A DNA stretch of 64,000 bases from Naegleria gruberi (Eukaryota). The notes beneath the pieces were generated by a model that did not search any database, was not told the DNA's origin, and was given only the letters and a program-made list of their open reading frames with translations. The stretch lies in the NCBI GenBank assembly GCA_000004985.1, contig GG738903.1; one strand, written 5' to 3'. The position numbers and the translations under genes were made by a program. Shown here piece after piece: positions 37,569 to 62,524 of the stretch. How positions within the stretch are numbered: the stretch's first letter is position 1; every line of letters begins with the position of its first letter.

Positions 37569-39730
37569 ATGAAGAAGGTTCTTAGTCCATCATCTCTTCA
37601 ACTCAATTTGAAAATTGCTTCGGGAGCTATTGCTTCATCATCAAAACATGCAACACAAATTGTAAAATATCTTGCTCAACAACAGCTGGCATCTGTTAAT
37701 TCTTCCTATCATCAATCTAGTCGAGTTTCAACAAGCAAAAAAAAGGATAACGATGATGATGAATTTAAAAAGAACATGAACAACATATTTGGAGCATTGG
37801 GAGGCTCGGAACAAGTGAAAGGACATTTGAATGATATATTCAATGCTTTTTTAAAACCTGGAGCAAATATTCATACTTCAGGTGCTTCGAATTCTTCATC
37901 TTCATCATCTAAAAAGAGTGAACAACAAACAACGGAAAATGATGAAGCAAACAAGCCAAAGAATACCTTCATTCAAGATGAAGAACGATTAAACGAGAAT
38001 TTCCACAAGATTGTCTTTGAAGCCTATCACATGCAACGTAAACAATTTGAAAACAAATTGACACCACAAGAAATTGTGAATTGTCTTGATAAACATATTG
38101 TTGGACAAAAGGATGCAAAGAAGGCTGTCAGTGTAGCCCTTCGTAATAGATATAGAAGAAAGATTTTGATTGATTGGGCAAAGAGTGAAAAAACTTTACT
38201 TGATCCTTCTGAGATAATTCCAAAGAATATTTTAATGATTGGATCAACAGGTTGTGGTAAAACTGAAATTGCAAGAAGATTGGCAAAATTAGTTTCTGCT
38301 CCATTCTTGAAGGTTTGTTTAATTCAATGTTCTCTATTAATTTATTATTATTATTTTATTATTATTATTATTATTGGAATGTTCTTAATGAAAAAATTAT
38401 ATAGGTGGAAGCAACTAAATATACAGAACTTGGATATCATGGAAGAGATGTGGATACTATTGCTAGAGACTTGGTGGATGTTTCTATCAATGTTTTGAGA
38501 AATAATATTACTGATCTTTTCAAACAATTTTTAAATAGACCACCATCATCAACACCATCCGAACAAGAAGAAGGAACTTTGGAAGAACCAGACTTGTTTG
38601 GATCCTATCTTCAACAATTAATAGAGTATAGAATCATTCACTTGATGATTGGAACAAAAAATATAGCAAATTTGAGAAATGGTACCATTAAGGATTATTT
38701 GAACATGTTAAGAAATGGAGAATTGGACGATAGAAAAATTGAAGTGAGCATGCCTGAAAAGAAATCATCATTAGGATTATCTCAATTCAGTGACGTGTTT
38801 GATGCTGTCAAGGGTTCATTTGGATCATCTCTTGATAATTCCAAATTTTCAATGCCAGATGTTGCCAACTTGTCAGATCATCAAACACCACTTGACTCAA
38901 TGTTAGGTCAATTAAATCCACAAAAATATAAAAAGGTTGAAATGACAATTAAGGAAGCCAAAGTGAGATTAGTAGAGTTGGAAATGGATAAATTTTTGAA
39001 TAGCCCATTATTCATTGAAGAGGCAAGAAAGATTGCTGAAAGTGATGGAATTGTCTTTATTGATGAAATTGACAAGATTTGTGGAAGTCCTGAAAAGAAG
39101 GCCGTTCAAGGAGATGCCTCAGGAGAGGGAGTGCAAAGGGATTTATTACCACTGTTAGAGGGTTGCACAATTAATACTAAATATGGTCCAGTCAAGACGG
39201 ATCATGTTTTGTTTATTGCTAGTGGTGCTTTCCATCAACAAAAGCCATCTGATTTAATGTCTGAATTCCAAGGTAGATTGCCAGTAAGAATCATGTTAAC
39301 TGCACTTAATACGCCTGAAGAGCTCTATCAAGTATTAACAATGCCAGAATTCAACCTTGTGAGACAAAATATTTCCCTTATGAATAGTGAGGGTATTTCT
39401 TTGGTCTTTAGTGACGCAGCTAATAGAGAAATTGCCAATTTCAGTGCCTTGTGTAATGCAGGAAATGATAATCTTGGTGCAAGAAGATTAATTGGAATTA
39501 TTGAAAAGGTAATTGATGAAATGTCTTTTATTATTCCAGACTTAGTGAGAATGGAGGATACTGAAAAAGCTGCACAAGAATTGAGAAATATTGGATTTAA
39601 CACTTTTGAAATATCAAGACAAGATAATAGAAATGCTATTACAATCACAATAACAGCCGAAGATGTGCAAAAGAAACTGGAAAAGAGCTCACAATTTAAA
39701 AAGTTGGATGTGAAGAAGTTTATGATTTAA
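37569..39730 (+). CDS. hslU: HslU-type AAA+ ATPase (ATP-dependent protease HslVU ATPase subunit), probable mitochondrial
   Basis: Exon 1 37569-38312, intron 38313-38404 (GTTTGT...TATATAG, phase 0), exon 2 38405-39730. The junction restores the canonical [23 protein letters not shown] sequence. Other motifs: [25 protein letters not shown], Walker [18 protein letters not shown], sensor/arginine-finger region [11 protein letters not shown], an I-domain insert, and an N-terminal presequence-like [24 protein letters not shown]. Confidence 0.85.
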
Positions 39731-39749: not shown

Positions 39750-42700
39750 TTAAAGTTCAAATCTTGCATTTGCTTTCATTCTTTGTTTGAGTTCGTTCAC
39801 AATAGCAAATGATTTGTACTCATCTGTGAAAATAAACCTAGAGAAGGTATCACTCAAGTTCATAACAATTTGTTGATAGAGAGAATCAGCACATCCATTA
39901 ATCATTCTTTGATAACCAACCCACATTACTTTGTTTTCTGTATTGTTTGCTTCTGCCTTCTTTTGTTCATCAACCAATTTTACACTTGATTGACTAAAGT
40001 CAAGTTTGATTGGCTGGGCATTCATGGATTGCATTGGAATTGACTTTGTCTTTTTAGTATTCAACTCTCCATACAGAATGCTTTCATAAACCTTATCCAC
40101 AAATGGCTTGTCTTTACCTTGCTCGACAACCATCTTGAATAAGAGTAAGAATGAATTTCTTGAATGTGATGGAATATTCACTTCCATAGTTGCTCCTAAT
40201 TTGATGTAAACCTCGTAGGTGCTGACACAGTACGAGTAGAGATGTTTCAAGAACTCTTCAGAATCGTCCATCTTATTCTCCAAAGTATCCATAAAGAGCT
40301 TGATATCAACATACATGTAAAGATTTTCCAAAGACCATTCCTTTTTACAGAACTCCTCAAATAGAATAATACCTTCAGAGTCTGACATTACTTGAGAGAG
40401 TTCCTCATTTTCTAATTCCACTGCTTCTTCTTTCTTATTGTCATTAGGTTTTTCAGTTGTAATCTTCTTGTAGAAATTATAAAGTGAAACCAAGGAAACA
40501 AATCCACCAAATGCTAAAATATAAAATACAATATAGACAGTTTCAATGGCAAATCTGGCTGAGTCAAAGACAAGCCCAATTGTGAATTGTTTAGTGTCAG
40601 AGCTGGAGAATTTTCCATCAATACTGGCAAGACCTAACGCTTGAGAAACAATGAGGAAGATAAAGAATGCCACAAAGAATATCATTTCCAAACGGTAGAA
40701 CAGTGGAGTATCTCTTCTAACAAACCATTTCCATACTGTGTGTAATACTGTTGATATTTGAATTGTTTCCTTTCCTTTACCTGATGAAGTATCAGCACTA
40801 ATTGGTTTAGTTTCTAATTTCTTTTGTCCTTTTCCTTCAGTAGTCGCTCCTTGATTTGTAAGTCTTGCAGAAATTGAAGACTCCTTTGAATCGTCATCAA
40901 ATTTGTAAGTCAAAATCATATCAGCAACGAAAATTAAAGCAACAATCAAGGCAAATGTCAAAATGACAACACAATAGGATACAGAAACAATAGTAGTGTA
41001 GTCATTAGCACCAATAACTCCAGTATACTTGAGAACAAACCACAAAGTCCAATAGAGAATGTTAGCTACAGCAAACAAACATAAAATAGCATAATAGATT
41101 GGATTTGAGGTCAATCTCTTGAATGTTGTAATCTTCTTTGCATAATTTGCTAAAAGATTACCTTCCTTATTTCTCATCACATTCATTAAATTGTAAAGAT
41201 GCTTCATGAATAAGTAACGAACCACTTGTAAGAGGAAGGCGAGAATGGCTGTTAAATTGAGAGTGTTGACAATAATTGAAGCTATACCACCAAACCAATT
41301 GACTACATTAGTGACATCAGTTTCATAAGCTGCCGATTTCAATGTATTACTCAATAATTCATTAACAAGAATGGAATTTCTAATAATTGAAATCAAAACA
41401 CATTCAGTCAACAGGGCAATCATACCCAAGTATGGAGCAACAAGTCTACTCTTAATAGGTTGCTTATTTTTAAATATTGTGAGCAATACCAAAACAATAA
41501 CAGCCACAATTCCATAAATTCCTCCAAAAACTATTTCAGCAATGTAATAACTGGCAACTTGTAATTTGTAGCTACTATTAACAGCACTAGTCAAATTGAA
41601 TTGCAAGAAAGTACCAAATCTTGTGGTATGGTCACACTTACAAACAACATCACCATTAACAAATGAAGAGACGTAACAACCATTTCCTAACCAAGCATTT
41701 TCGGTTTCATTCCAATATCTGCACTCCATTGTGGTATTGGTAATATTCTTATTTGATGTCAAGGTAGAAAGTGATGTCTTGTCGAGAGAGAACGTCAAAG
41801 CAATAGGATTTTTGAGATTTCTCAATTCAACTTGACTGTCTGACATACTGAGTGTGAATTCCGTTAGAGGTGCAAGAATATAACTCTTCTTTGAGAAGGA
41901 ATCAACCTTTGAGTTGATAGAGTAGGCTATGAATGATAAGCCAAAGGATCCAGTTGTTTCATTTGAAATTTGTTGGAAAATAGAATTCATATCCAAACTA
42001 ACTTGATTAATACCAGTTGAAAGAGTTTGATTGGTAGTTGTTGGAGTTGACTTATCCAGAGAGAATGCAGAAATTGTAATATTGACCATATCAGTTGCAA
42101 ATGAAAGAGTTGGAACTGATCCAGTTGTAACCAATGTTGGAATTTCACCAATGAGAGCTGTATCAGCTGTACTTTCTGCAGTTGATTCCACCTTTTCAGA
42201 GTTTAGTCCAGTTTCCAATAAATTTGAAACAAGTTTTAGTGTTGAAAATGTGACAGTTGAATCCAAAATCTTTGTCTTGACAAATGAATACAATGCCTTT
42301 TCTTCTAAATATTGAGCTGTAACATTTGAAACGAAATTGGCTAACTTGGTGTTTACCTTGTCGACCATTTCAGAGCTCATCTTTGAAGGATCTGAAGTAA
42401 TGGTAAGGAAAGAATCCAATGCACTTTGTGGATTCTTAATATCAAATTGAACATTGTCAATTAATTGATTCAAAACGGCTTGTGATTCATTGGTTGAAAT
42501 TGATCGAGTAGAAATGGATGTATCATAAGAGTAAAGAACTGATTGCTCAGAAGAGCTAGCACTACTCAATAAATTCAATAATTCCGAAACTGTTCCATTG
42601 TAAGGCGAAACTGTGACTGTTGAAGAATATGTCCACTCTTCATTACCATACTTATCGGCAACAAAGAGAATAACAGTGACAGTCTCATCGTTGGTGCTTC

Positions 42701-45700
42701 TACTCTTCTTTGTTTGAGTCAAATAAGGAAGAATGGAACTGAAAGTGGAATTAGTAGTGTATGAAGTGATTCTGACAGGTTTTTGTTGTGTAGAATCATA
42801 AACACCTAAAGCATACGTGAGTGGTTTGAGAGAATCGGCAGCTGACCATTCCTGAACTGTGAAAACGAAATTTTCAATAAGTGCCATACCTTGAGTTGGC
42901 ATTATAGTGACGAGTTTTGTTGTATTCTTTGGAGCTGATGCTGGTGGGATGATTGGATAAGTTGAGGTGATTGAAAAACTGGAATTACTGTCCTGATTTC
43001 TAAATTCCAAAATAATTTCCAAAATTGATTCTTCAGCAGTGTTCTGTGTGAGATTTGTAATTTGCGATTTGAAATTGGAAACAGAATAGGAAAGATATGG
43101 AGAGCAAGTAAATCCATCAAGAGCAGAGTTTGGAACAATGGTTACATTTCCAGAAATGTCTAACATGTTAAGAGTTTGATTGAATCTAACGACAAGTGAG
43201 TATTCAACTTTCTTTGCTGCACAACCACCATTGTTACATCCCAAGAATCTTACCAAAGCACTTTGATTCAAAGAAACTGTCGGTACAACAATATCCAAAC
43301 TAGTTGGTAAGGTATTGGTTGTGTAAGCTTCCTTCACACCAACAACAGATACAGAGTATGATTCTGGCACTTGAATAATGGTAATATTAAAACTAAATGT
43401 GTTTGATTGTCTGTAGAAGAAAACACCATCCTCTGAGGTTACAGCCATAGCCGACAATTCAAGATTGAAAGTTCCTGTTGGTAATACATAAACATTGAAT
43501 AGGGCAATTGATTGAGTAATATTTGAAAGATAATCACTTCCATTATTTCCTTGACAATTAGTACATGTCCAATTGTAAATCACATTTTCCAACAAGTATG
43601 GTTGTGGAAGAATCTCACCTAGAACAGCATGAAGTGACAAACTAGAAATATTGTTGTAGACACTATAACTCTCTACCGTGTAACCTCCAATTTTAAGTGA
43701 GACTGTAATTGGAGATTGTGTGATATTACAATTCTTACCAAACCATGGATAACTGCATTCACAAGTATTAGGACTATTACAGATACCATTTTGTGAGCAA
43801 ACATCCAAAGAAGTTGCATTCACACCAAAGCAAATTGGTGTTTGACAATTTTCTCCAGTGAAACCATTTGTGCATTCGCAATTATTTGGCGATTTGCATT
43901 GACCATGTCCAGAACAAACATTCAATGTATCATTAAAGTACAAAGAATAGCATTGGTACAGAGTACATTCCTCTCCAAAGTAACCTTGTACTTGACAAGA
44001 GCAAGTATTTTCAGAATTACATTGACCTTTTCCATTACAAACTTGTGGATCGGTTGAATTCTTTCCGAAACACGTTGAGAATTGACAATTATTACCAGAG
44101 TATGTTGAAGTACAATTACAGAAATCGACACCAATGCAGCTTCCTCTTTGGTTACAAACATTTGAAGAGTTGGCAAGAATATTTTCACACTTGAAGATTT
44201 CACAATTTGAACCGCCATATCCATAGCCACATGAACACAAATCAGTGTCAATACATTGACCAAAACCTGAACAAACTGATGGCATAGTTGAATTGATTCC
44301 GTAACAAATTGGGTATTGGCACTTGTCTCCAGTGTATCCTGTAACACAAGAACACTTATCAGGAGAAATACATGAACCCTTTCCACTACAAATAAACTTG
44401 GAATCTTGTGAAGTATTATTTCCAAAGCAAGAAACATATTGACAGTTATTTCCACTATATCCTAAATTACATGAACAATTATTTGGTAAAATACATTTAC
44501 CAAATCCAGAGCACACAGTATTATTGAGATAGTTCAATCCATAACAATTGTAATCTGTGCAATTCTTTCCATAGTAATTATAATCTGTACAGTAACAAAC
44601 GTCTGGAGAAGTACAAATACCTTTTGCATTACATTGTGTTGGATCATCAAAGGTTCTATTATAACAAATTGGTTTGTTACATTGTCCACCAGACGAAAAA
44701 CCAGATAGACATTGGCATGTATCTGGTGCAACGCAGCTACCATTATTGGAACAGACATTTGGATCTAGAGCCGAGAGTGAGTAACAAACTGGAATGTCAC
44801 ATCTGGAACCTGTGTATTGAGAGGTACAATTACATAAATTGGCACCAGTACAATTTCCCTGAGAGCTGCAATATGCAACACCATCACATGAGTAGGCAGA
44901 ACATTCTGCATTGCCTTTCCATCCAGTGTTGCACTGACAAGTATTATTGGAAATACACAAGCCATTTCCATGACAGTTGTCAGAGGCATCACATGTGAAA
45001 GTATTACAATTTGAACCTGTCCAGCCAGATCTACATTGGCATGTGTTATTTCCAATACATTGACCATTTTGAGAACAAGAATTAACTCCGTCACAACTAA
45101 TAACTGAACAATTGGAACTTCCTTTCCATCCACTTTGACATTGGCAAGTATTGTTTGAAATACATAAACCATGATCGTAACAATTAAGCACACCATCGCA
45201 TGTGAAAATGTCACATTTTGGTCCAGACCATCCAGATCTACATTGACATGTGTTATTTCCAATACATACTCCATTTTGAGAACAGCCACTAACACCATCA
45301 CATGAGAATTGGGAACATTCTGCATTGCCTTTCCAGCCACTATAACATTGGCAAGTGTTGTTGGAAATACACAAGCCATTACTGTTACAATTTGAAGAGG
45401 CATCACAAGTGAAAACATTGCAACTTGCTCCTGTCCAACCAGACCTACATTCGCATGTGTTATTTCCAATGCATTGACCATTTTGAGAGCATGAATTAAC
45501 ACCATCACAAGTAATTGCCGAACAATTCGAGTTACCTTTCCATCCACTAACACAGTTGCATGTATTAGCGCCTGTACACGTACCATGTCCTGAGCAGAAA
45601 TCTCTATCCTTACAAGTAAAAGTATTACAATTAGCTTCTGTCCATCCACTGTTACAATTACAAGTATTATTTGAAATACAAGTACCGTGTCCATTACAAG

Positions 45701-47882
45701 CTCCTAATGCATCACAACTGATTGCTGAACAATTTGCATTACCTTTCCATCCACTATCACAAGTGCATGTATTTGCGCCTGTACACGTACCATGTCCAGA
45801 ACAGTAATTTCTTTGATCACAAGTGAAAACTGAACAATCGACAGCACCTCTCCAACCTGTTTTACAACTGCAAGTGTTATTCGAAACACAAGTACCCTTA
45901 CTGGCACCTCCACAATTACTTAAGGCATCACAACTAATTGCTGAGCAATTTGCATTTCCTTTCCATCCACTTTCACAAGTGCATGTATTAGCACCTGTAC
46001 ACGTACCATGTCCTGAACAATAATTAGTTCCGTCACAAGTGAATTCAGAGCAGTTACTAGCTCCTCTCCATCCTGAATTACAGGTGCAGGTATTTGGACC
46101 GCTGCATATTCCGTGTCCATAACAACCTCCAACTAGCTCACAACTCACTGAATTACAACTTGTGTCTCCCTTCCAACCATCATTACATGAACAAGTATTT
46201 GCACCAACACATTCACCATGCCCAGAACAATAATTGCGCGAATCACACGAGAATATTGAGCAATTACTAGCTCCTCTCCATCCTGAATTACAGGTGCAGG
46301 TATTTGGGCTGCTGCATATTCCATGTCCATAACAACCTCCAACTAGCTCACAACTCACTGAATTACAACTTGTATCTCCCTTCCAACCAGCATAACAAGA
46401 ACAATTATTGGGTCCAATACAGTCACCATGAGATGAACAATAATTGCGCGAATCACACGAGAATATTGAGCAATTGGCAGCTCCTCTCCAGCCAGTAACA
46501 CAAGAGCATGTATTAGCAGAAGTACATGTTCCATGGTTTGAACAAACATTTGCTGTATCAGTTGCATTGTAAGAGTAACAAATTGGAATGTTGCACGAAA
46601 TTCCAGTCCAATCAGTATTACATGAACAATATGTTTCTGAAGCACAAGAACCATGTCTTCTCCAACATTGTAGAGATGGCGAACACAATTCATAGGAACA
46701 ATCAAGTCCTGTATAGTTGGTGGCAGTACAGTTACAACTGTTCGGAGCAATGCAATCTCCCTTATTGTAACAAACATTTGGTGATGGATAATAGTAACCG
46801 TAGCAAATATTGTATTGGCATTCAGAACCAGTATAACCAGTATTGCAGGAACAAGTATTCGGTGAAGTACAGGTACCTCTCACAGATCCAGAGCAAGCAT
46901 TTGCTGTATTATTGGAAGGTATTCCATAGCAAATTGGATATTGACATTTTGGCCCAGTGTATGTCGAATTACATTGACATGTGTCAGTATCAATACAGTT
47001 ACCATGCCCTGAACAAATAACTGATGAGATATTTTTAAAGGTACTCACTCCAAAACATATTGGAATTTCACAATTATTTCCTGTGTAACCTTGTGGACAT
47101 TGACATTGATTAGTAAAAACACAAGTTCCTCTTCCTGAACAAACAGTAGTATCATTTTGTAAAATTCCATTACAAATAGTAACATTACAATCATTTCCAA
47201 ACCAATTGGCTTTACAATTACAAGTATCCAAATCAGTACAATTACCATGTGAATTACAGACATTTGAGGCATTCTGAACTATTCCAAAGCATGAAGGAGT
47301 GCCACATTGAGTACCACTCCATCCATCATCACATTTACACACATTGGTATCGATACAATCTCCATTTCCTTTACAAACAGAATTTGTTTCATTCTGTAAT
47401 ATTCCAAAACAGGAGGTAACATTACAATCAATTCCATACCAATTTGATGAGCATGAACAAGTATCAGTACCAGAACAAGTTCCATGCCCATTACATACAG
47501 CACTTGTTTCATTCTGTAATATTCCAAAACAGGAGGTGATTTGACATTGAGTGCCATACCAATCTGGATCACATTCACAATTATCTTGTTCGGTACAGTT
47601 TCCTCTTCCGTTACAAACTTGGGTTGTGTTTGACAATTTTCCAAAGCAATAGATGAGTGTATTGTTGTTGGATTCTTGTGCTTGTGTGAAAAGGAAACTC
47701 TCTTTAGTTTCGAATATTTGTTGTTGGTCTTGATGGAATAAAAACATCATGATGAAACAAGTTGACAAAATTGATGCATATAAAATTATATTCATCAGAA
47801 AGGAATGATTACCCGGAGAAGATTGTTTCCTCCTTGTCATTCCAATACGAGAAAACCCATTATTATTATTGCTTCTCATCAT
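39750..47882 (-). CDS. Giant EGF-repeat / REJ-module / GPS-motif 7TM receptor with C-terminal RGS domain
   Basis: Single 2710-codon exon with N-terminal signal anchor. About 1100 residues of tenascin-type EGF repeats (CNGHGTC...C.C..GW.G..C). REJ-like signature IIPPASAPKNTTKLVTIMPTQGMALIENFVFTVQEWSAADSLKPLTYALGVYD. Ser/Thr-rich stalk. GPS motif CRYWNETENAWLGNGCYVSSFVNGDVVCKCDHTTRFGTF. Seven hydrophobic helices. Cytoplasmic RGS signature FEEFCKKEWSLENLYMYVDIKLF...EVNIPS. Confidence 0.8.
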   Translation of the reverse strand: MMRSNNNNGFSRIGMTRRKQSSPGNHSFLMNIILYASILSTCFIMMFLFHQDQQQIFETKESFLFTQAQESNNNTLIYCFGKLSNTTQVCNGRGNCTEQDNCECDPDWYGTQCQITSCFGILQNETSAVCNGHGTCSGTDTCSCSSNWYGIDCNVTSCFGILQNETNSVCKGNGDCIDTNVCKCDDGWSGTQCGTPSCFGIVQNASNVCNSHGNCTDLDTCNCKANWFGNDCNVTICNGILQNDTTVCSGRGTCVFTNQCQCPQGYTGNNCEIPICFGVSTFKNISSVICSGHGNCIDTDTCQCNSTYTGPKCQYPICYGIPSNNTANACSGSVRGTCTSPNTCSCNTGYTGSECQYNICYGYYYPSPNVCYNKGDCIAPNSCNCTATNYTGLDCSYELCSPSLQCWRRHGSCASETYCSCNTDWTGISCNIPICYSYNATDTANVCSNHGTCTSANTCSCVTGWRGAANCSIFSCDSRNYCSSHGDCIGPNNCSCYAGWKGDTSCNSVSCELVGGCYGHGICSSPNTCTCNSGWRGASNCSIFSCDSRNYCSGHGECVGANTCSCNDGWKGDTSCNSVSCELVGGCYGHGICSGPNTCTCNSGWRGASNCSEFTCDGTNYCSGHGTCTGANTCTCESGWKGNANCSAISCDALSNCGGASKGTCVSNNTCSCKTGWRGAVDCSVFTCDQRNYCSGHGTCTGANTCTCDSGWKGNANCSAISCDALGACNGHGTCISNNTCNCNSGWTEANCNTFTCKDRDFCSGHGTCTGANTCNCVSGWKGNSNCSAITCDGVNSCSQNGQCIGNNTCECRSGWTGASCNVFTCDASSNCNSNGLCISNNTCQCYSGWKGNAECSQFSCDGVSGCSQNGVCIGNNTCQCRSGWSGPKCDIFTCDGVLNCYDHGLCISNNTCQCQSGWKGSSNCSVISCDGVNSCSQNGQCIGNNTCQCRSGWTGSNCNTFTCDASDNCHGNGLCISNNTCQCNTGWKGNAECSAYSCDGVAYCSSQGNCTGANLCNCTSQYTGSRCDIPVCYSLSALDPNVCSNNGSCVAPDTCQCLSGFSSGGQCNKPICYNRTFDDPTQCNAKGICTSPDVCYCTDYNYYGKNCTDYNCYGLNYLNNTVCSGFGKCILPNNCSCNLGYSGNNCQYVSCFGNNTSQDSKFICSGKGSCISPDKCSCVTGYTGDKCQYPICYGINSTMPSVCSGFGQCIDTDLCSCGYGYGGSNCEIFKCENILANSSNVCNQRGSCIGVDFCNCTSTYSGNNCQFSTCFGKNSTDPQVCNGKGQCNSENTCSCQVQGYFGEECTLYQCYSLYFNDTLNVCSGHGQCKSPNNCECTNGFTGENCQTPICFGVNATSLDVCSQNGICNSPNTCECSYPWFGKNCNITQSPITVSLKIGGYTVESYSVYNNISSLSLHAVLGEILPQPYLLENVIYNWTCTNCQGNNGSDYLSNITQSIALFNVYVLPTGTFNLELSAMAVTSEDGVFFYRQSNTFSFNITIIQVPESYSVSVVGVKEAYTTNTLPTSLDIVVPTVSLNQSALVRFLGCNNGGCAAKKVEYSLVVRFNQTLNMLDISGNVTIVPNSALDGFTCSPYLSYSVSNFKSQITNLTQNTAEESILEIILEFRNQDSNSSFSITSTYPIIPPASAPKNTTKLVTIMPTQGMALIENFVFTVQEWSAADSLKPLTYALGVYDSTQQKPVRITSYTTNSTFSSILPYLTQTKKSRSTNDETVTVILFVADKYGNEEWTYSSTVTVSPYNGTVSELLNLLSSASSSEQSVLYSYDTSISTRSISTNESQAVLNQLIDNVQFDIKNPQSALDSFLTITSDPSKMSSEMVDKVNTKLANFVSNVTAQYLEEKALYSFVKTKILDSTVTFSTLKLVSNLLETGLNSEKVESTAESTADTALIGEIPTLVTTGSVPTLSFATDMVNITISAFSLDKSTPTTTNQTLSTGINQVSLDMNSIFQQISNETTGSFGLSFIAYSINSKVDSFSKKSYILAPLTEFTLSMSDSQVELRNLKNPIALTFSLDKTSLSTLTSNKNITNTTMECRYWNETENAWLGNGCYVSSFVNGDVVCKCDHTTRFGTFLQFNLTSAVNSSYKLQVASYYIAEIVFGGIYGIVAVIVLVLLTIFKNKQPIKSRLVAPYLGMIALLTECVLISIIRNSILVNELLSNTLKSAAYETDVTNVVNWFGGIASIIVNTLNLTAILAFLLQVVRYLFMKHLYNLMNVMRNKEGNLLANYAKKITTFKRLTSNPIYYAILCLFAVANILYWTLWFVLKYTGVIGANDYTTIVSVSYCVVILTFALIVALIFVADMILTYKFDDDSKESSISARLTNQGATTEGKGQKKLETKPISADTSSGKGKETIQISTVLHTVWKWFVRRDTPLFYRLEMIFFVAFFIFLIVSQALGLASIDGKFSSSDTKQFTIGLVFDSARFAIETVYIVFYILAFGGFVSLVSLYNFYKKITTEKPNDNKKEEAVELENEELSQVMSDSEGIILFEEFCKKEWSLENLYMYVDIKLFMDTLENKMDDSEEFLKHLYSYCVSTYEVYIKLGATMEVNIPSHSRNSFLLLFKMVVEQGKDKPFVDKVYESILYGELNTKKTKSIPMQSMNAQPIKLDFSQSSVKLVDEQKKAEANNTENKVMWVGYQRMINGCADSLYQQIVMNLSDTFSRFIFTDEYKSFAIVNELKQRMKANARFEL
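45550..46520 (-). repeat. Near-identical tandem EGF-pair coding repeats (about 216-bp units)
   Basis: Protein units SCDSRNYCSSHGDCIGPNNCSC..GWKGDTSCNSVSCELVGGCYGHGICSSPNTCTCNSGWRGASNCS recur with few substitutions. Antisense mini-ORFs 45704-45913, 45920-46132 and 46145-46342 are near-copies of one another. Coordinates are approximate. Confidence 0.6.
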
Positions 47883-48187: not shown

Positions 48188-50695
48188 CTAAAAAATGTGA
48201 TCATCAGAATCATCATCATCGTCATCATCTTCATCATAGTAATTACCATATATATAACCCATATCAAGATCATCAGAATCATCAGAGTTATAATCCTCAT
48301 CAGATGTGTCTTCTTCCATGCTGTCTGTGTTAACCTGTACTTCTAATTGCTGTGTAATCCTTTTCAAAAGGGATGTCACATACAGGCTTCTCGACTCATT
48401 GAATGAAATGCAATCTGTTATAGCATCAAAAATGTCATCAACATTCAAATGTTTTGGTCTTACATCTAGATTGTGCTCTAAAATATTTAAAAAATTTGTT
48501 AAAACAAGCTCAGATAATACATCGGTATCATTTTCATAGAGGAATCCACAGGGACAGCCAAACTGGCCCATGCCAGTGGAAATCTTTCCAAAATCTCCAA
48601 AATGAGCAACTGAATAGATGAATCTTTGATTCTCTATTTCATGTATTTGAGGACATTCTAATTTTTCATTAATAAGTCTGTCAATTTCTGATTGAGGAAG
48701 TATCGCGACACCTGTTGAAAGAAAATAATTGTTCAAAATACGTCCCAACGTGATATGAGCGTCTTTAGATTTGGATTTGGCAAGAGATTTAACAATAACT
48801 TCTTCATTTCCTATTTCAGGATGAATACGAACACCCTTAAAAAATTTGACATCAAAAAAGAAGCTCACTACAATTGGTGATAACTCTCTATCATTCTCAA
48901 CTAAAAAACCCAACATTTCTGGAATTTGAAAATGCTTTGATATTTCATTCAATCGATCCTCGCATTCTTTTGTTTCAGGTAGATTGTTTCTATGGACAAT
49001 ATTTCCTAAATTTTTGAAAACCAACTTAGTAAGCTCTGTGTTCAACAAGGACTCAACCAATTTTTGAACAATATCCACTACTTCCAAAGATTTAGAATCT
49101 ATTGCTCCACGAACAATCTCATCAAGTGGACGTACAAGTGTCTCACTAAAAACAGAGGGCAGAGCAGGTATGTTCAGCAAGGCCTGAATACTGTCGGCAA
49201 CCTGTAAAAAATAGTCCTGCTCTTTCATACATTCAGCTACTTTTTGAATAACCTCGAGAGCTTTTTCTGAAAAAATACTTTCTGTACAACAATACTTAAA
49301 TGCTGCTGTGAATATTTTCAGATAATTAACTTTTGGTATTGGATTGAGAGAAAAGGCTTTCAAAATCTTGTGCATTATCTGAGAGTCGTATGCATAATCA
49401 AATGTCAAGTGTTTGGCACCACAATTATATGCCTCCTCTCTTACTATTAAAGATTCCCTTTCTAGCAATGGCAATATAGCTTGAACAACATTCTTACATC
49501 TAGAAAAATTTCTGTTGAAAACATGTTAGCAAGAAATAATATGATCCACTACTAACCTTTGATTATTACTCGGTGATGAAAGAGCTCTCAAACAATCTAT
49601 TACTAATTCTTCATCAGAATATTTCAATAGTCTCGTTAAGAAGCTTGAAATGCTTTCAACAATATTATTATCACCTCTTTGATCAATTATTTCCATTATA
49701 GAAATTATCTTTCTAACTCTCTTGTACTTTTCCTCTTTTGGAAATATTTTGATGCTTTCTTTTTCTATAACATTGATATCATATGAAACTTCCTGATAGA
49801 GAGTAAAGAAGGGATGTAAATCTTTGGCTGATTTATAAGCCTCACGAATTGAAGGTATTTTTGGATTGTCTATATGTTGATAAGCAGTCTTTCCTAATCT
49901 TGTTATACACATTGATCTTTGATCCTCATCTTTTGACTTGTAAATTAAATCTAATAATATGCAATCCATGTCATTCATATCAATATAACTACCTTCCCAG
50001 TTAGATGCATTATAATAGGTAACTATTAGAGACTTGAAATGTTTTAAGAAATATTTGACCTGTAAACTTGGTACACCTGCTTCTGCAATCTTGATGGTTG
50101 CCACAAAGAGTGAAATCTTCCAATCAGGTATTTTCATTGATTGTGTGGTATAAAGTGTTATTGGCTGTTCAGTCTGACCTATTGCCACATTCAAGAAATT
50201 TAACATGTTTGTTCCGAATGTAGAATCCAAACAATAGATATGCTTTAAAAATCCTCTTGCTGTGTTCTGGTTATTTTCTTCAAATAGGAAAGCATTCGGA
50301 AGTGCCTCGGCAGCCATCATACATATTTTGTAATTTACAATCATTTCATCATCGCTTGATTCAATTTTAAAAGTATCATCTTCAGTACAGCCAAAACTCC
50401 ACTCCTTTCCATTTGATACTGTTTTATACATTTCAATTAAATTTTGTACAAGTGTTTTACATGGCTCCTTTCGGTAAGAGGCTTGATTTATCACTCTATT
50501 TCTCATCTCCTTTAAATGTTGTAATAATTCCTCTGATGTATATGTTGGCCAAGCCTCTGCCTTTTGATTTATATCCTGTTGAGTTTCATCAGAGTAATAA
50601 TCAGAGTCATCATCACTCGAAGAATAATCCCGTCCATGCATATGATAACCAAACGAATGACCAAATCTTCGCACCAATCCCATATGATTGAACAT
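48188..50695 (-). CDS. Large hypothetical protein (about 815 aa) with acidic termini; two track ORFs joined by a short intron or an in-frame TAA
   Basis: ORFs 49526-50695 and 48188-49474 are in the same frame and separated only by TAA. A minus-strand GTTAGT donor at 49556 with acceptors CAACAG (49512) or TTCTAG (49500) removes the stop while keeping frame (45 or 57 nt). No domain recognised. Asp-rich C-terminus DEDDDDDDDSDD. Confidence 0.5.
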
Positions 50696-58500: not shown

Positions 58501-61500
58501 CCTTCTTAACTGGATCTTCTTATAATCCTAATTGTGCAACTGCTGATTGCTTGATTCATATTAAGAGATATGCATGTTATACTACATTCAAGTCTTGTAT
58601 TAATACTACTTCAACTGCTGTTCCATGGTGTAAATCTGCATGTCAAATCATGTATACTCAAGCTAGTACTATTGCTAATTTTAGTTATCCAATGAATGCT
58701 ACATGTGACTCATTCCCTGACTCCAACTGTAACTACGGTGTCTACCTTCCTTCCACTACCACTTGTTTTGGTAAATCAATTAAGGATGCTACTGTATGTT
58801 CAGGAAAAGGATCATGTATTTCTCAAGATACTTGTAATTGTGCAAATGGTTATTCTGGAAGCAATTGTGAAAAGGCAGTTTGTTTCTCAAAGATTAGTTC
58901 TGATTCATCAGTTTGTTCAGGAAGAGGTTCATGTGTTGCTCCAAATAGTTGTACATGTAAAACAGGATACACAGGAGAAAAATGTGAACTTCCAACATGT
59001 AATGGTAAGAGTGATGTTTTGGGTGGTTGTTCATTCCGTGGATCTTGTAATACTACTGATTCTTGTATCTGTAATGGTAATTTTGATTCATCAACATTCT
59101 GTTCTAAATGTAAGAGTGGTTATGTTGGATCAAATTGTGATGTTCCAGTATGTTTCTTAATTTCTGCCACTGATAGTACTGTTTGTGGAGGTCAAGGTTC
59201 TTGCATTAGTCCAAACACTTGTAAATGTAAATCAGGATATTCAGGCACTGCTTGTCAAACCTTCTCTTGTTATGGTATTTCAAAGACTGACAGTAATGTC
59301 TGTGGTGGAAGTACAAGAGGTTCATGTATTGGTCCAGACAATTGTAAATGTGTTACCAATTGGAACAATAAGAATAATACTTGTACTAGTTGCAGTCCTG
59401 CATACACTGGTTCTTCATGTACTACTCCAGTTTGTAGTGCAACTGATACATGTAATTCTCATGGTACTTGTGATTCTAATTTCAAGTGTGTCTGTACTGG
59501 TAATTTCATTGGTGATTATTGTTCATCATGTGCCACTGGATTTGTTGGTGCAAATTGTGATATTTCTTGCTCAGCTGCCAAGACATGTAATTCACACGGT
59601 TCATGTACCAATACTGGTTCTTGTACTTGTAATGGTAATTTTGATCCTTCTTTCAATTGTGCATCTGCTAAATGTCTTAATGGTTTCTTGGGTGATGGAT
59701 GTAATTACAAGGTTGATACATCTTCTTTCAAGTTCAATGCTAATGGTGATAGAATTACTGCTACCATTTATAATGCTGTCAAGACTCAAGTTGCCTGTTC
59801 TCAAATTATTTCATCTCTCTCCAAGCTTGGTACTGGTCCAATTTGTAACATGGATGGTAAATCATCTATTGAAATTATTTTAGGTGTTGGTGCTACCATT
59901 GTTACTGGTGATTCATTAACTCTTTATTCATTGATTGGTGACTCTAGCTCAACTGTTAATGCTGTTGTTTCTGCTGGTGAATTTGTTGCTTTAGCACCAA
60001 CTTCTGCATTGACTTCTGACAAGTCTCTTGTTTCCCAATGTGATGTTTTGAATTTGAATGCATTTGATTCTGTTTCTCTTGATCGTCGTCCTCTTACATT
60101 CTCTTGGACTTGTACTGCTGGTCCATCATCAGATGATCAAACCAAATTGAATTCTTTAATTTCCTCTACTACATTGAGTGGTATCNNNNNNNNNNNNNNN
60201 NNNNNNNNNNNNNNNNNNNNNNNNNNNNNNNNNNNATTGCTCAAGCAGCTCCAACTCTTTCAATTAAGGAAGGTACTTCTGTTAAATTCCTCATTGGAAC
60301 TACAAGTCTCATTACACCAGTAATTTCATTCCCAACTTGTTATACTGGTACAGGTGCTACAACTTATACATTTACACTTGATGGATCTGTTTCAAAGGTT
60401 TCATCCTTATCAGTTTCTACCAAGAATAACTTGTTGGTCCTTGGTTCTAGTTTTACCAATATTAATCAAGAAGGTGATTATTACTTTATTGTAACTGCAT
60501 CTGCTGATAGTGCTCAAGCAGTTAGTACAACTGTTAAAGTTAGTGCTGTTGCTCAACCTATTTCAGTTGCATTCAGTGTTCCAGATATGACTCAATCTAA
60601 GGATGACCCAGTTGCCTTCTCTATTTCTGTTACTGATCCAAGTAATACTCAAGATACATTGACTCTCTCAACAACATGTATTGATTCAACTGGTACTTCT
60701 TGTTCTAATCCAGGTTCTGCTTCATCATTCAGTTCTTCATTCGCAGCTGGTACTTATATCTTTACTACCACTGCTACTAAGGGTTCAAGAACTTCAAGTG
60801 CCAAATTGACAATTACAGTTCTCGATACTTCAAAGAGTTTAATTGTCAGAGTTTCAATTACTTCCAATGTTGATTTGACAACTGTTGATCCAACAAAGGA
60901 CTTGTATTTGACCTATAATACTTTGGATTCCTTGTCTGCTCCAACATTCTCTTGGACCTCTGCTACTGGTGATGTTTCTTCAAGTTCTCTTCTCATCATT
61001 CCAAGCTCTAATCTTGTTCCTGGTTCTTCCTATGTTGTTTCTTTATCAGTTGTTGATGGTGCTAAATCCGGTACTGCATCTGTCACAATTACAGTCAACT
61101 CTCCTCCAACAGTTGGTGTCTTTGAAGTTTATCCAACTAGTGGTGTTGCTTTGAGTGATTCATTCAGTCTCAAGTGTGGTAATGGTTGGTCTGATCCACA
61201 AACTCCATTATCATTCCAATTCTTCTTCTATGATTCTGTATCTATGAAGTGGAATTCACTCACTGAAAAGTCTCAACAACAAAGTGCCAACATTCAACTT
61301 CCATCACCAAGTTCAGGTTCAACATTGACTATTAAGGCTGTTGTTTATGATGCTTTGGGAGCTTCTTCTGAATCTAGAACAAATATTACCATTACTCAAC
61401 CAAGTAATGCCGACGTTGCAAGTACTTTAACTTCAATGGCAAAGGGTACTAATACTGTTACCTTGTCTGGTGTTAGTGCTGCAATGTTTGTTATTGGTGC

Positions 61501-62524
61501 TGTTAGTAATCCAACTGATGCTGAAAAGGCAGCCATTCAACAAGCTTCTACTGCACTTGCCAATTCATTCTTATTACAACAAGCTCAAAGTGCTGCTGTT
61601 ACATCACTTTCTTCATCAGCAGCTGAAAGTAGTATCTCCTTCTCAAGCTCTGTTGCTGGTTCAGTTTCAAAGGGTCTCTTTGCTGATTCAACAACTTCTC
61701 AAGTTATTTCAAGCTTGTCAAATACTACATCTTCTGTAACATCAAGTTCTTCTGTTAGTCTTTCTGATGATGCTATTGCAAGTACTTTGGCAACTGCTAA
61801 TAATTTCCTTGCCTACATCAAGTCCAAATTATCAAAGAGATCTTTCAGTTCTGCTGATCTTACTAATTTGAATGCTGTCTTTGCAAGTGTTGCTTCTATC
61901 AAGACTAAGAATGTTGTTCCTGATGCACCAGCTGCTACTGTAACTGCCAATGGTGTCACAACTTCTTCTCGTAAGGTCAATCTTGCTTCTTTGAATTCTA
62001 TGGCTCAAAATACTACAGGAAAGGATCAAATCAAGTTCAAGAATAATATTGCCGCATTGACTGCCTTTGCTAATGCCAAATCTGTTAGTGTTACAGTCAA
62101 GACAACTAGTACATCTGTTACTAATGCTGTCACCAATGCCATGACATTCTCATTTGCTGATGGAACTAGTTCTGCAACTATTTCAGTTTCTAGCTCTTCT
62201 CCAATTGCTGATTTGGTATTTGGTACAACCAAGAGTTTGACAAGATCAATCACTGCAACCCAAGTCATCTGTAAATCTGTCGATTCAAGTGGTGCTGCTT
62301 CAGATGCTTCAGGATGTACTGTTGTAATTGGAAGTGATGGTACTGCCACAGCAACTGTTTCAAGTACTGGTACTTATTTGTTGACTCAACAAACAATTAC
62401 TGCTACATCGAGTGGTAAAACTGTTACTCCTAAACCTTCAAAGCTCAGTAGTGCTCCAGCAAGTACTTTCTCAATGATGTTGACTCTTTTCATTGCTGCT
62501 ATTACATTGATTATTTTACAATAG
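55584..62524 (+). CDS. Giant membrane-anchored (probably GPI) EGF-repeat / double Frizzled-type CRD / REJ-module protein, spanning an assembly gap
   Basis: Signal peptide, then tenascin-type EGF repeats. Two Fz-CRD-like 10-Cys modules (CQSLMQASTAPFCASVGV...YKRYACYSQFPICSAN...PVCNGAC...LCGSLPSKYC and CVNVMSSSSTPFCASAGV...IKRYACYTTFKSC...WCKSAC). NNGT sequon repeats. REJ-like block LTFSWTC...SPPTVGVFEVYPTSGVALSDSFSLKCGNGWSDPQTPLSFQFFFYD. Ser/Thr/Ala-rich stalk. Terminal hydrophobic FSMMLTLFIAAITLIILQ. The ORF-track entries 55584-60323 and 60431-62524 are the same gene across the 50-N gap; the frame offset is unknown. Confidence 0.7.
57471..57680 (+). repeat. Tandem NNGT/NNNGT coding microrepeat (about 15 consecutive N-glycosylation sequons)
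   Basis: SSNNGTNNGTINNNGTINNNGTVNNNGTINNNGTTNNNGTANNGTVNNNGTINNNNGTSNNGTSNNNGT, encoded by aat/ggt/act iterations. Confidence 0.85.
60186..60235. other. Assembly gap (50 N)
   Basis: Run of n characters inside the coding region of the 55584-62524 gene. Confidence 1.

What the first reader, a model, noticed from the sequence alone, without database searches (positions are those of the whole stretch)
39750..47882. Adhesion-GPCR / polycystin-like giant receptor with intrinsic RGS (GAP) domain
One uninterrupted 8.1-kb ORF combines an EGF array, a REJ module, a GPS/GAIN-type autoproteolysis motif (CxC-H-TTRFGTF), seven TM helices and a C-terminal RGS domain with the canonical F..F...E.S.ENL.FW..V..F signature. 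7TM-RGS fusions are known from plants (AtRGS1 type) and some fungi and protists. One carrying an adhesion-GPCR/REJ-type ectodomain with a GPS motif is highly unusual. It implies a self-contained ligand-regulated GAP for G-alpha, acting as a sensor of cell contact or matrix.
Basis: partly seen in the sequence, partly recalled or inferred. Interest (0 to 1): 0.85.

Follow-up and report, generated by a model that had tools for sequence, protein, structure and literature searches.

The report
Naegleria adhesion-type seven-transmembrane RGS receptor
This is a real 2,710-residue surface receptor gene of the amoeba Naegleria gruberi that joins an adhesion-receptor-like outside to a G-protein "off-switch" (RGS) domain inside; this design was already described for Naegleria fowleri in 2022, so it is one more member of a known family and not a new kind.

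Summary
ORF 39750..47882 (-) is uninterrupted and encodes 2,710 aa:
- a signal/anchor
- 35 EGF units
- a beta-sandwich stalk
- a complete GAIN domain with a GPS motif (CKCDH-T|T-RFGTFL)
- seven TM helices (N-out, C-in)
- a cytosolic RGS box with the G-alpha contact residues intact

Pfam REJ does not hit this protein. A family profile does match the Pfam-verified REJ domain of a neighbouring gene (hhalign 93.9%).

Residues 46-2710 are 100% identical to N. gruberi XP_002671779.1 (NAEGRDRAFT_73289, "predicted protein"). It belongs to a large Naegleria/Willaertia family with at least 89 cluster representatives.

Bosch et al. 2022 (PMC9283941) described 28 N. fowleri "7TM RGS" proteins. Several carry EGF repeats and GPS motifs, and three of their RGS domains showed GAP activity. 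One of the four cloned proteins (Nf 7TM RGS1) is a recognisable paralogue.

The architecture call is right; "highly unusual" is overstated. This is a new member of a known kind. The mechanism (an ectodomain- or tethered-peptide-regulated GAP) is inferred, not shown.

The parts
39750..47882 (-). Complete single-exon CDS, 2,710 aa plus stop. It is N. gruberi NAEGRDRAFT_73289 / XP_002671779.1; the RefSeq model starts at M46 (window 47747).
   Evidence: ORF list and translation. aa 46-2710 are 100% identical to P0003. P0003 is EFC39035.1 / XP_002671779.1 / D2VW82_NAEGR.
47733..47795 (-). N-terminal hydrophobic signal peptide or signal anchor (aa 30-50, MNIILYASILSTCFIMMFLFH). The RefSeq start at M46 cuts through it.
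   Evidence: Kyte-Doolittle peak of 2.06 at aa 32-50. Sequence. RefSeq start position.
43728..47648 (-). Array of 35 six-cysteine EGF-like (teneurin-type) units, aa 79-1385. It is heavily sequon-rich. The central part is built from tandem duplications of EGF pairs.
   Evidence: Pfam EGF_TEN 1.1e-132, EGF_2 1.9e-96 over 30 stretches, EGF_Teneurin 3.2e-89. Regex count of 35 units and 210 Cys; 69 NxS/T sequons in the ectodomain. 210-bp repeat at 46048-46490, 90% identical, and 207/414-bp repeats over 44877-46019.
42603..43703 (-). Beta-sandwich stalk (aa about 1394-1760), PKD/REJ-like. Its C-terminal part (aa about 1610-1772, window 42567-43055) is remotely homologous to a REJ domain.
42150..42590 (-). 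GAIN subdomain A: helical bundle, aa about 1765-1911.
41598..42107 (-). GAIN subdomain B: beta-sandwich, aa about 1926-2095, ending in the GPS motif (aa 2053-2090, window 41613-41726).
41622..41630 (-). Predicted autoproteolysis site H2085-T2086 | T2087, followed by a tethered-agonist-like peptide TRFGTFLQF.
   Evidence: Aligned to ADGRG3: CDHL|TFFALLL against CDHT|TRFGTFL. In 25 distinct relatives the motif is C-x-C-x-H-T(24/25)-T-x-F-x-x-F-[LVIM]-[EQD]. Cleavage itself was not tested.
40473..41546 (-). Seven-transmembrane bundle, aa 2113-2470, N-out / C-in, with a long ICL3 (73 aa).
39792..40400 (-). Cytosolic RGS box, aa about 2495-2697, split by an insert of about 85 aa with low confidence (aa about 2577-2660, window 39903-40154).
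   Evidence: Pfam RGS 24.2-27.0 bits against a cut-off of 23.9. Both halves align to RGS10. Family profile against PDB: RGS3/16/5/2/4 at 5e-10 to 7.5e-9. Foldseek hits RGS4-Gi-alpha1 (1agr), RGS16 and RGS17 with probability 0.99-1.00 and TMt 0.46-0.59. SxEN, EVN and DTFSRF are invariant or nearly so in the family.

Best explanation
The ORF is the Naegleria gruberi gene NAEGRDRAFT_73289. It is a member of the heterolobosean '7TM RGS' receptor family that carries an adhesion-receptor-type ectodomain.

The protein is a type-I-oriented, heavily glycosylated surface receptor. Thirty-five EGF units and a PKD/REJ-like beta-sandwich stalk present binding surfaces to cells, prey or substrate. A complete GAIN domain sits directly on TM1. 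A GPCR-fold seven-helix bundle links it to a cytosolic RGS box.

Proposed mechanism (inferred): the RGS box acts as a membrane-tethered GAP that keeps one or more of the many Naegleria G-alpha subunits in the GDP state. Some N. fowleri G-alpha subunits are self-activating. Engagement or shedding of the ectodomain would change the 7TM conformation or the receptor's surface residence, most likely through the GAIN/GPS module and the conserved T-x-F-x-x-F-hydrophobic peptide after the HT|T site. That would change access of the GAP to G-alpha, as proposed for AtRGS1 in plants.

Shown here: the ORF, its identity, the domain composition, the GAIN, GPCR and RGS folds (predicted), the predicted topology, conservation of the G-alpha-contact residues, and family membership.

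Shown by others, on paralogues' RGS domains only: GAP activity and G-alpha binding.

Inferred: autoproteolysis, the tethered-peptide role, ligand or adhesion regulation, and which G-alpha is the target.
For: Identity: 100% over 2,665 aa to XP_002671779.1.

Domains:
- Pfam EGF, GPS and RGS are all above their curated cut-offs.
- RGS: the profile hits RGS3/16/5/2/4 at 5e-10 to 7.5e-9. Both halves align to RGS10.

RGS contact residues: the positions equivalent to RGS4 S85/E87/N88, N128 and D163/R167 are S-x-E-N, E-V-N and D-T-F-S-R. These RGS4 residues are the G-alpha contacts in the RGS4-Gi-alpha1 structure of Tesmer et al. 1997 (my knowledge). They are invariant or at least 90% conserved in 12-28 relatives.

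One polypeptide: GPS-7TM-RGS is contiguous in relatives from N. fowleri, N. lovaniensis, Willaertia magna and metagenome contigs. RGS is found in 24 of 24 relatives scanned.

Function of the family (PMC9283941): N. fowleri has 28 7TM RGS proteins, several with EGF, lectin and GPS modules. The RGS domains of Nf 7TM RGS2-4 accelerate GTP hydrolysis on Nf G-alpha 2/3/5/7. Direct binding selective for the transition state was measured by SPR for RGS2 and RGS4.

Link to those proteins: the peptides encoded by both Nf 7TM RGS1 cloning primers match P0006/P0152 (FDP41_005437). The span between them is 180 aa, as in Table S1. P0006/P0152 is a paralogue at E 1.8e-160 and 35-36% identity.
Against: - No experiment exists on this protein or its direct N. 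fowleri orthologue (P0151, FDP41_013758). That orthologue is not one of the four tested proteins.
- The Pfam RGS score is only just above threshold, and the box carries an insert of about 85 aa.
- The -1 residue at the GPS is Thr, not the canonical Leu, so cleavage is uncertain.
- Conservation of T-x-F-x-x-F could reflect only the structural role of the last GAIN beta-strand.
- AF2 model 1 is of moderate quality (mean pLDDT 65.3).
Confidence: 0.7

Rival explanations
1. It is a true G-protein-activating adhesion GPCR. The 7TM bundle would act as an exchange factor switched on by the tethered peptide, and the fused RGS box would sharpen or terminate the signal. This would be a receptor and GAP in one chain, comparable to a GPCR that recruits an RGS protein in trans, such as GPR158-RGS7.
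Confidence: 0.15
2. The RGS box is a non-catalytic docking or scaffold module, like the RH domains of GRKs or sorting nexins. The protein would then be mainly an adhesion or matrix molecule whose signalling does not involve GTPase acceleration.
For: The Pfam RGS score is marginal (24-27 bits against 23.9) and the box contains an 85-aa insert. De Mendoza et al. note that some RGS domains have lost GAP activity (PMC3971589). Weak profile matches to the GRK2 RH domain appear at E about 0.7.
Against: All canonical G-alpha contact positions (SxEN, EVN, DxxxR) are kept and are invariant or at least 90% conserved across the family. The best structural and sequence matches are R4/RZ-type catalytic RGS boxes, not RH domains. 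RGS boxes of related N. fowleri 7TM RGS proteins are active GAPs and are sensitive to the switch-I G-to-S mutation (PMC9283941).
Confidence: 0.1
3. It is a polycystin-1 / suREJ-type receptor: REJ plus GAIN/GPS in front of a polycystin membrane domain that works with a channel partner.
For: A REJ-like segment lies immediately N-terminal to the GAIN domain, the order I recall for polycystin-1. The neighbouring gene has a strong Pfam REJ domain. One relative hits Pfam REJ.
Against: Pfam REJ does not hit this protein. There are seven TM helices, not eleven. ICL1 is 11 aa, so there is no room for a PLAT domain. No PLAT or PKD_channel match was reported at E<=10. The C-terminus is an RGS box.
Confidence: 0.03
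4. It is a gene-model or assembly artefact: two or more neighbouring genes (an EGF/REJ surface protein and a 7TM-RGS protein) that only appear fused.
For: The window is a draft assembly with a 50-N gap in the neighbouring gene. The EGF array contains near-identical tandem repeats that could be mis-assembled. A separate EGF-REJ gene without 7TM-RGS lies next door.
Against: There is no stop codon and no N within the 8.1 kb. The same REJ-like/GAIN/7TM/RGS order is found as one ORF in a metagenome contig (P0001, L001) and in N. fowleri, N. lovaniensis and Willaertia proteins of 1,300-2,700 aa. Repeat mis-assembly could change the EGF count but not the architecture.
Confidence: 0.02

Closest known systems
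Naegleria fowleri '7TM RGS' proteins (Bosch et al. 2022, J Biol Chem, PMC9283941), e.g. Nf 7TM RGS1 (NF0014590, matching FDP41_005437)
   Same: Same family by sequence: E 1.8e-160 and 35-36% identity over GPS-7TM-RGS. Same architecture: EGF repeats, GPS motif, 7TM and a C-terminal RGS. Same genus.
   Different: This is a different paralogue in a different species. Its own N. fowleri orthologue (FDP41_013758, 49% identity over the C-terminal 761 aa) was not among the four proteins cloned. The paper reports GPS motifs, EGF repeats and lectin domains. In the passages I read it does not mention a full GAIN fold, a REJ-like stalk or the invariant HT|T-x-F-x-x-F motif.
Metazoan adhesion GPCRs (class B2; ADGRG6/GPR126, ADGRE5/CD97, ADGRL3, ADGRB3, CELSR1)
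   Different: No 7tm_2 sequence match was reported and no structural preference for class B2 was seen. The -1 residue is Thr instead of Leu. The cytosolic tail is an RGS (GAP) domain, which predicts the opposite effect on G-alpha. The organism is a discoban amoeba, far from animals.
Arabidopsis AtRGS1 and other protist, plant and early-fungal 7TM-RGS proteins
   Same: Seven TM helices followed by a cytosolic RGS box. The proposed logic is a receptor-GAP acting on self-activating G-alpha (PMC9283941; PMC3971589).
   Different: From my knowledge, AtRGS1 has almost no ectodomain (about 460 aa in total). This protein has a 2,000-aa EGF/REJ-like/GAIN ectodomain. Homology of the two 7TM bundles was not tested here.
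Polycystin-1 / sea-urchin REJ / PKDREJ
   Same: A REJ-type segment directly precedes a GAIN/GPS domain, and PKD-like beta-sandwiches are present.
   Different: The REJ similarity is remote and partial. There are 7 TM helices, not 11. There is no PLAT domain and no polycystin or channel domain. The protein has an RGS tail.
GPR158/GPR179-RGS7-G-beta5 complexes

Membership tests
Naegleria/heterolobosean 7TM RGS family (Bosch et al. 2022) | Seven TM helices with a C-terminal cytosolic RGS box in one polypeptide | tested here: met
   Hydropathy, AF2 helices and charge bias. Pfam RGS above its cut-off. Single ORF.
Naegleria/heterolobosean 7TM RGS family (Bosch et al. 2022) | Sequence homology across 7TM and RGS to a published member | tested here: met
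   P0006/P0152 carries the peptides encoded by both Nf 7TM RGS1 primers, 180 aa apart as in Table S1. It matches the profile at E 1.8e-160 and is 35-36% identical.
Naegleria/heterolobosean 7TM RGS family (Bosch et al. 2022) | GAP activity of the RGS box on Naegleria G-alpha subunits | not testable with these tools
   Only the conservation of contact residues (SxEN, EVN, DTFSR) could be checked. GAP activity was shown for Nf 7TM RGS2-4 only.
Adhesion GPCR (class B2) | GAIN domain with GPS motif immediately N-terminal to TM1 | tested here: met
Adhesion GPCR (class B2) | Secretin-like 7TM domain (Pfam 7tm_2) | tested here: not met
Adhesion GPCR (class B2) | Autoproteolysis at H-L|T/S and a tethered agonist T-x-F-x-x-L-M | tested here: inconclusive
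   The His and the +1 Thr are invariant, and F+3, F+6 and a hydrophobic residue at +7 are conserved. The -1 residue is Thr in 24 of 25 sequences. Cleavage and agonism need experiments.
Adhesion GPCR (class B2) | Activates heterotrimeric G proteins (GEF) | not testable with these tools
   There are no data. The fused RGS predicts GAP action instead.
AtRGS1-type 7TM-RGS | 7TM plus a C-terminal RGS box | tested here: met
AtRGS1-type 7TM-RGS | Homologous 7TM bundle and a short N-terminus | not tested
The N-terminus here is about 2,100 aa, so the short-ectodomain feature is clearly absent.
Polycystin-1 / REJ family | REJ domain (Pfam PF02010) | tested here: inconclusive
   No Pfam hit on this protein at E<=10. 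The family profile matches the neighbour's Pfam-REJ domain (3.3e-47) at hhalign probability 93.9% and E 1.6e-7 over 136 columns. One relative in alignment A4 hits REJ at 8.5e-7.
Polycystin-1 / REJ family | Eleven TM helices with a PLAT domain after TM1 and a polycystin/TOP domain | tested here: not met
   Seven TM helices, an 11-aa ICL1, and no PLAT or PKD_channel hit reported.

The most novel reading that the evidence does not exclude
The GAIN domain and the invariant H-T|T-x-F-x-x-F-hydrophobic peptide form a working tethered-ligand switch. Here that switch would control a GAP instead of an exchange factor, making this an 'inverse adhesion GPCR' in which shedding or pulling of the 2,000-aa N-terminal fragment turns G-alpha signalling on by silencing or internalising the fused RGS. 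It would also mean that the GAIN-7TM mechanosensory module predates animals and their relatives, either being present in the common ancestor shared with Discoba or being transferred horizontally. The REJ-GAIN order would then link it to the polycystin ectodomain.
Probability: 0.2. Interest if true: 0.7.

Novelty: new member of a known kind. Interest (0 to 1): 0.3.

Why it matters
The gene is a well-defined N. gruberi member of the 7TM RGS family, which is better known from the pathogen N. fowleri. N. gruberi is non-pathogenic and can be cultured, so it is a practical system for follow-up.

Three additions from this analysis go beyond what I read in the 2022 description:
- The 'GPS motif' is part of a complete two-subdomain GAIN fold.
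- A REJ/PKD-like stalk precedes the GAIN domain, in the order I recall for polycystin-1.
- The cleavage and tethered-peptide motif H-T|T-x-F-x-x-F is essentially invariant across Naegleria and Willaertia paralogues.

Together these make one question directly testable: can a GAIN/tethered-peptide switch regulate a GAP rather than a GEF? They also bear on how old the GAIN-7TM module is.

The finding does not change the picture of G-protein signalling, because the receptor-GAP idea and this architecture are already published.

A practical by-product: the RefSeq model appears to start 45 codons too late and so loses the signal sequence.

Tried and rejected
- **Word-indexed homologue searches.** The search for homologous proteins returned only 2-3 relatives, with a single sequence and with a 12-sequence profile. 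It did not return the identical RefSeq protein. The exhaustive representative search was needed to identify the gene.
- **Pfam REJ on aa 1380-2000 at E<=10.** No hit. The REJ claim is therefore kept only as a remote similarity supported by hhalign.
- **Pfam on aa 1950-2710 at E<=10.** No 7tm_2, PLAT or PKD_channel match. There was only a sub-threshold DHHC match on the TM7 region (E 0.027, 15 bits against a cut-off of 28.7), dismissed as hydrophobic noise.
- **Pairwise BLASTP of the stalk against the neighbour's REJ ORF.** Only a 43-aa match at E 0.008, which is not convincing alone.
- **Foldseek against the afdb50 library.** The library was not available, so the REJ-like stalk could not be compared with predicted PKD1 or PKDREJ structures.
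- **Looking up the genomic locus of the N. fowleri fragment P0002.** Not on record.
- **A 91-sequence full-length alignment.** The tool failed; smaller alignments were used instead.
- **Literature search for 'GAIN domain' plus Naegleria.** No paper found.
Rejected on the 100% match to N. gruberi.
- **tRNA scan of the window.** No genes found.
Full report
**Observation**

The minus-strand ORF 39750..47882 is uninterrupted and encodes 2,710 residues. At about 34% GC, roughly 7% of random codons are stops, so an open frame of this length is not a chance event (my estimate).

**Identity**

- The exhaustive representative search returned P0003, which is 100% identical to aa 46-2710 of the ORF.
- P0003 is EFC39035.1 / XP_002671779.1 / UniProt D2VW82, 'predicted protein NAEGRDRAFT_73289' of Naegleria gruberi.
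- The window is therefore N. gruberi draft genome sequence. A 50-N scaffold gap lies at 60186-60235.
- The RefSeq model starts at M46, inside the only N-terminal hydrophobic stretch (aa 30-50, MNIILYASILSTCFIMMFLFH).
- The ORF's first ATG at 47882, or M30, gives a normal signal peptide or anchor. About 300 bp of non-coding sequence lies upstream of it.

**Anatomy, N to C**

1. **EGF array.** aa 79-1385 hold 35 back-to-back six-cysteine EGF units (210 Cys).
   - Pfam scores: EGF_TEN 1e-132 and EGF_2 over 30 stretches.
   - The central units arose by tandem duplication of EGF pairs. A 210-bp unit is 90% identical over 2.1 copies, and 207/414-bp units are about 75% identical.
   - The ectodomain has 69 N-glycosylation sequons, against 4 in the rest of the protein.

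2. **Beta-sandwich stalk.** In an AlphaFold model built on 25 family sequences (mean pLDDT 80.8, pTM 0.70), aa about 1394-1760 is all-beta.
   - Pfam REJ does not hit this protein.
   - The neighbouring gene has a strong Pfam REJ domain (3.3e-47). The family profile aligns to that domain at hhalign probability 93.9% and E 1.6e-7 over 136 columns, centred on the motif P-x-x-G-x-A-L...W...P-L-x-Y.
   - One relative in the family alignment hits Pfam REJ directly at 8.5e-7.
   - I therefore call this stalk REJ/PKD-like, remote and partial.

3. **GAIN domain.** aa about 1765-1911 form a helical bundle and aa about 1926-2095 a beta-sandwich ending in the GPS.
   - Pfam GPS scores 28.9 bits against a cut-off of 22.5.
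   - The motif aligns to ADGRG3 as CDHT|TRFGTFL against CDHL|TFFALLL.
   - In 25 distinct relatives the pattern is C-x-C-x-H-T(24/25)-T-x-F-x-x-F-[LVIM]-[EQD]. The catalytic His and the +1 Thr are invariant.
   - The +3/+6/+7 hydrophobic pattern of adhesion-GPCR tethered agonists (my knowledge) is kept, but the -1 residue is Thr rather than Leu.

4. **Seven TM helices.** These span aa 2113-2470.
   - K+R counts are 4, 7 and 13 in the putative cytosolic loops and 1, 0 and 3 in the external loops.
   - With the secreted, glycosylated N-terminus, this gives N-out / C-in topology and a cytosolic RGS.
   - Foldseek ranks full-length CD97 first (E 1.6e-4, 586 columns), which partly reflects the GAIN domain.
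   - No Pfam 7TM family was reported at E<=10.
   - The family profile's similarity to ADGRG6, ADGRL3 and ADGRD1 extends from the GPS into TM1 only.

5. **RGS box.** It spans aa about 2495-2697.
   - Pfam scores 24-27 bits against a cut-off of 23.9, matching only the first 75 of 117 model positions.
   - phmmer shows both halves aligned to RGS10, separated by an insert of about 85 aa that AlphaFold models at low confidence.
   - The 12-sequence family profile hits RGS3/16/5/2/4 at 5e-10 to 7.5e-9.
   - Foldseek hits RGS4-Gi-alpha1, RGS16 and RGS17 with probability 0.99-1.00.
   - The positions equivalent to the RGS4 contact residues S85/E87/N88, N128 and D163/R167 (Tesmer et al. 1997, my knowledge) read S-L-E-N, E-V-N and D-T-F-S-R. 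They are invariant or at least 90% conserved in the family.

**Family and literature**

- The profile search found 89 cluster representatives below 1e-30. Most are 1,200-2,700 aa with the match at the C-terminus.
- Named members come from N. gruberi (at least nine further paralogues), N. fowleri, N. lovaniensis and Willaertia magna, plus metagenomes.
- Among 24 relatives scanned, all have RGS, 17 have EGF, 12 pass Pfam GPS, 5 have NHL/teneurin-type propellers, and single members carry RCC1-like, ephrin-receptor-like or REJ modules. The family thus keeps a constant GAIN-7TM-RGS core under variable adhesive heads.
- Bosch et al. 2022 (PMC9283941) describe exactly this in N. fowleri:
  - 28 '7TM RGS' proteins;
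  - RGS domains of Nf 7TM RGS2-4 that accelerate GTP hydrolysis on Nf G-alpha 2/3/5/7, with transition-state-selective binding measured by SPR for RGS2 and RGS4.
- The peptides encoded by both cloning primers of Nf 7TM RGS1 (NKDMSI...NVVYLC*, 180 aa apart) match P0006/P0152 (FDP41_005437). That protein is a paralogue at E 1.8e-160.
- The direct orthologue of the window protein in N. fowleri is P0151 (FDP41_013758, 2,467 aa, 49% identity over the C-terminal 761 aa). It was not one of the four tested.
- De Mendoza et al. 2014 (PMC3971589) record 7TM-RGS architectures in many bikonts, chytrids, filastereans and ichthyosporeans.

**Mechanism**

The best-supported reading is a surface receptor-GAP. 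The adhesive ectodomain and GAIN module sense contact or force. The 7TM bundle transmits this. The fused RGS deactivates G-alpha at the membrane, and ligand or shedding alters GAP access, for instance by internalisation as proposed for AtRGS1.

- Shown here: composition, predicted folds, predicted topology, conservation and family membership.
- Shown by others, on related N. fowleri 7TM RGS proteins only: GAP activity.
- Inferred: cleavage, the tethered-peptide function, regulation, and the G-alpha partner.

**Rivals**

- A true GEF-type adhesion GPCR with a built-in terminator. This is possible and cannot be excluded. There is no 7tm_2 similarity and no precedent among 7TM-RGS proteins.
- A catalytically dead RGS scaffold. 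This is disfavoured by the intact contact residues.
- A polycystin-1-type protein. This is contradicted by seven TM helices, an 11-aa ICL1, and no PLAT or channel module.
- A fusion artefact. This is contradicted by the same contiguous architecture in several species and in a metagenome ORF.

**Comparison with known families**

- It is a member of the Naegleria 7TM RGS family.
- It works like, but cannot be filed as, an adhesion GPCR. The GAIN/GPS criterion is met. The 7tm_2 criterion was tested and not met.
- It shares the 7TM-RGS logic of AtRGS1 but not the minimal ectodomain.
- It shares only the REJ-like-GAIN order with polycystin-1.

**Verdict**

The combination is neither unprecedented nor rare in this lineage. 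The gene is already in RefSeq and UniProt, and the receptor-GAP hypothesis is published. It is a new, uncharacterised member of a known kind.

Modest added value comes from the complete GAIN fold, the REJ-like stalk, the invariant HT|T-x-F-x-x-F motif and a probable start-codon correction. Interest 0.3.

**Dead ends**

- The word-indexed homologue searches returned almost nothing.
- The afdb50 library was unavailable.
- A 91-sequence alignment failed.
- The P0002 locus is not on record.
- No paper links 'GAIN domain' with Naegleria.

Noticed in passing
window 55584-62524 (+), N gap at 60186-60235: A second large surface-protein gene, broken by a 50-N scaffold gap. It has a signal peptide, EGF arrays (Pfam EGF_TEN 5e-30), an Asn-Gly-Thr-rich low-complexity run, two Cys-rich modules, a strong Pfam REJ domain (3.3e-47, in ORF 60431..62524) and a hydrophobic C-terminal tail. 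No GPS, 7TM or RGS was found. It is an EGF-REJ neighbour of the EGF/REJ-like/GAIN/7TM/RGS gene, which suggests local domain shuffling or duplication.
   Followed up: partly
window 51636-53213 (+): A 525-aa ORF with an N-terminal RGS box (Pfam RGS 5.5e-7, aa 52-209, nearly the full model). A second RGS gene thus lies within 4 kb of the receptor. Bosch et al. report 79 further RGS-domain proteins beyond the 7TM RGS class in N. fowleri.
   Followed up: partly
window 47747-47882 (-): The RefSeq model XP_002671779.1 begins at M46 and truncates the hydrophobic signal/anchor (aa 30-50). The ORF's upstream ATGs (47882, or M30 at 47795) give a complete signal sequence, so the annotated start is probably 45 codons too late.
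   Followed up: partly
window 44877-46490 (-): DNA-level tandem duplications inside the EGF array. A 210-bp unit (two EGFs) is present in 2.1 copies at 90% identity (46048-46490). Units of 207/414 bp at about 75% identity span 44877-46019. The EGF copy number may be variable or sensitive to assembly.
   Followed up: partly
window 37569-39730 (+): Two overlapping ORFs with AAA-ATPase matches (AAA_2/Cdc48 subfamily 1e-21; weak Mg_chelatase/AAA_5). They are probably one AAA+ gene split by an intron or a frameshift. They end 20 bp from the low-coordinate end (39750) of the receptor ORF, which carries its stop codon, so the two genes converge.
   Followed up: no
locus L001 (JGI metagenome 3300002220, contig MLSBCLC_10109309), 1243-5172: An environmental contig carries a 49%-identical relative with the same REJ-like/GAIN/7TM/RGS order as one ORF (1,309 aa, N-terminally cut). 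It is flanked by DNA_alkylation-repair-like genes. An uncultured Naegleria-like amoeba is evidently present in that sample.
   Followed up: no
window 48188-50695 (-): Two ORFs (428 and 389 aa) directly upstream of the receptor gene have no Pfam match at E<=0.001.
   Followed up: no
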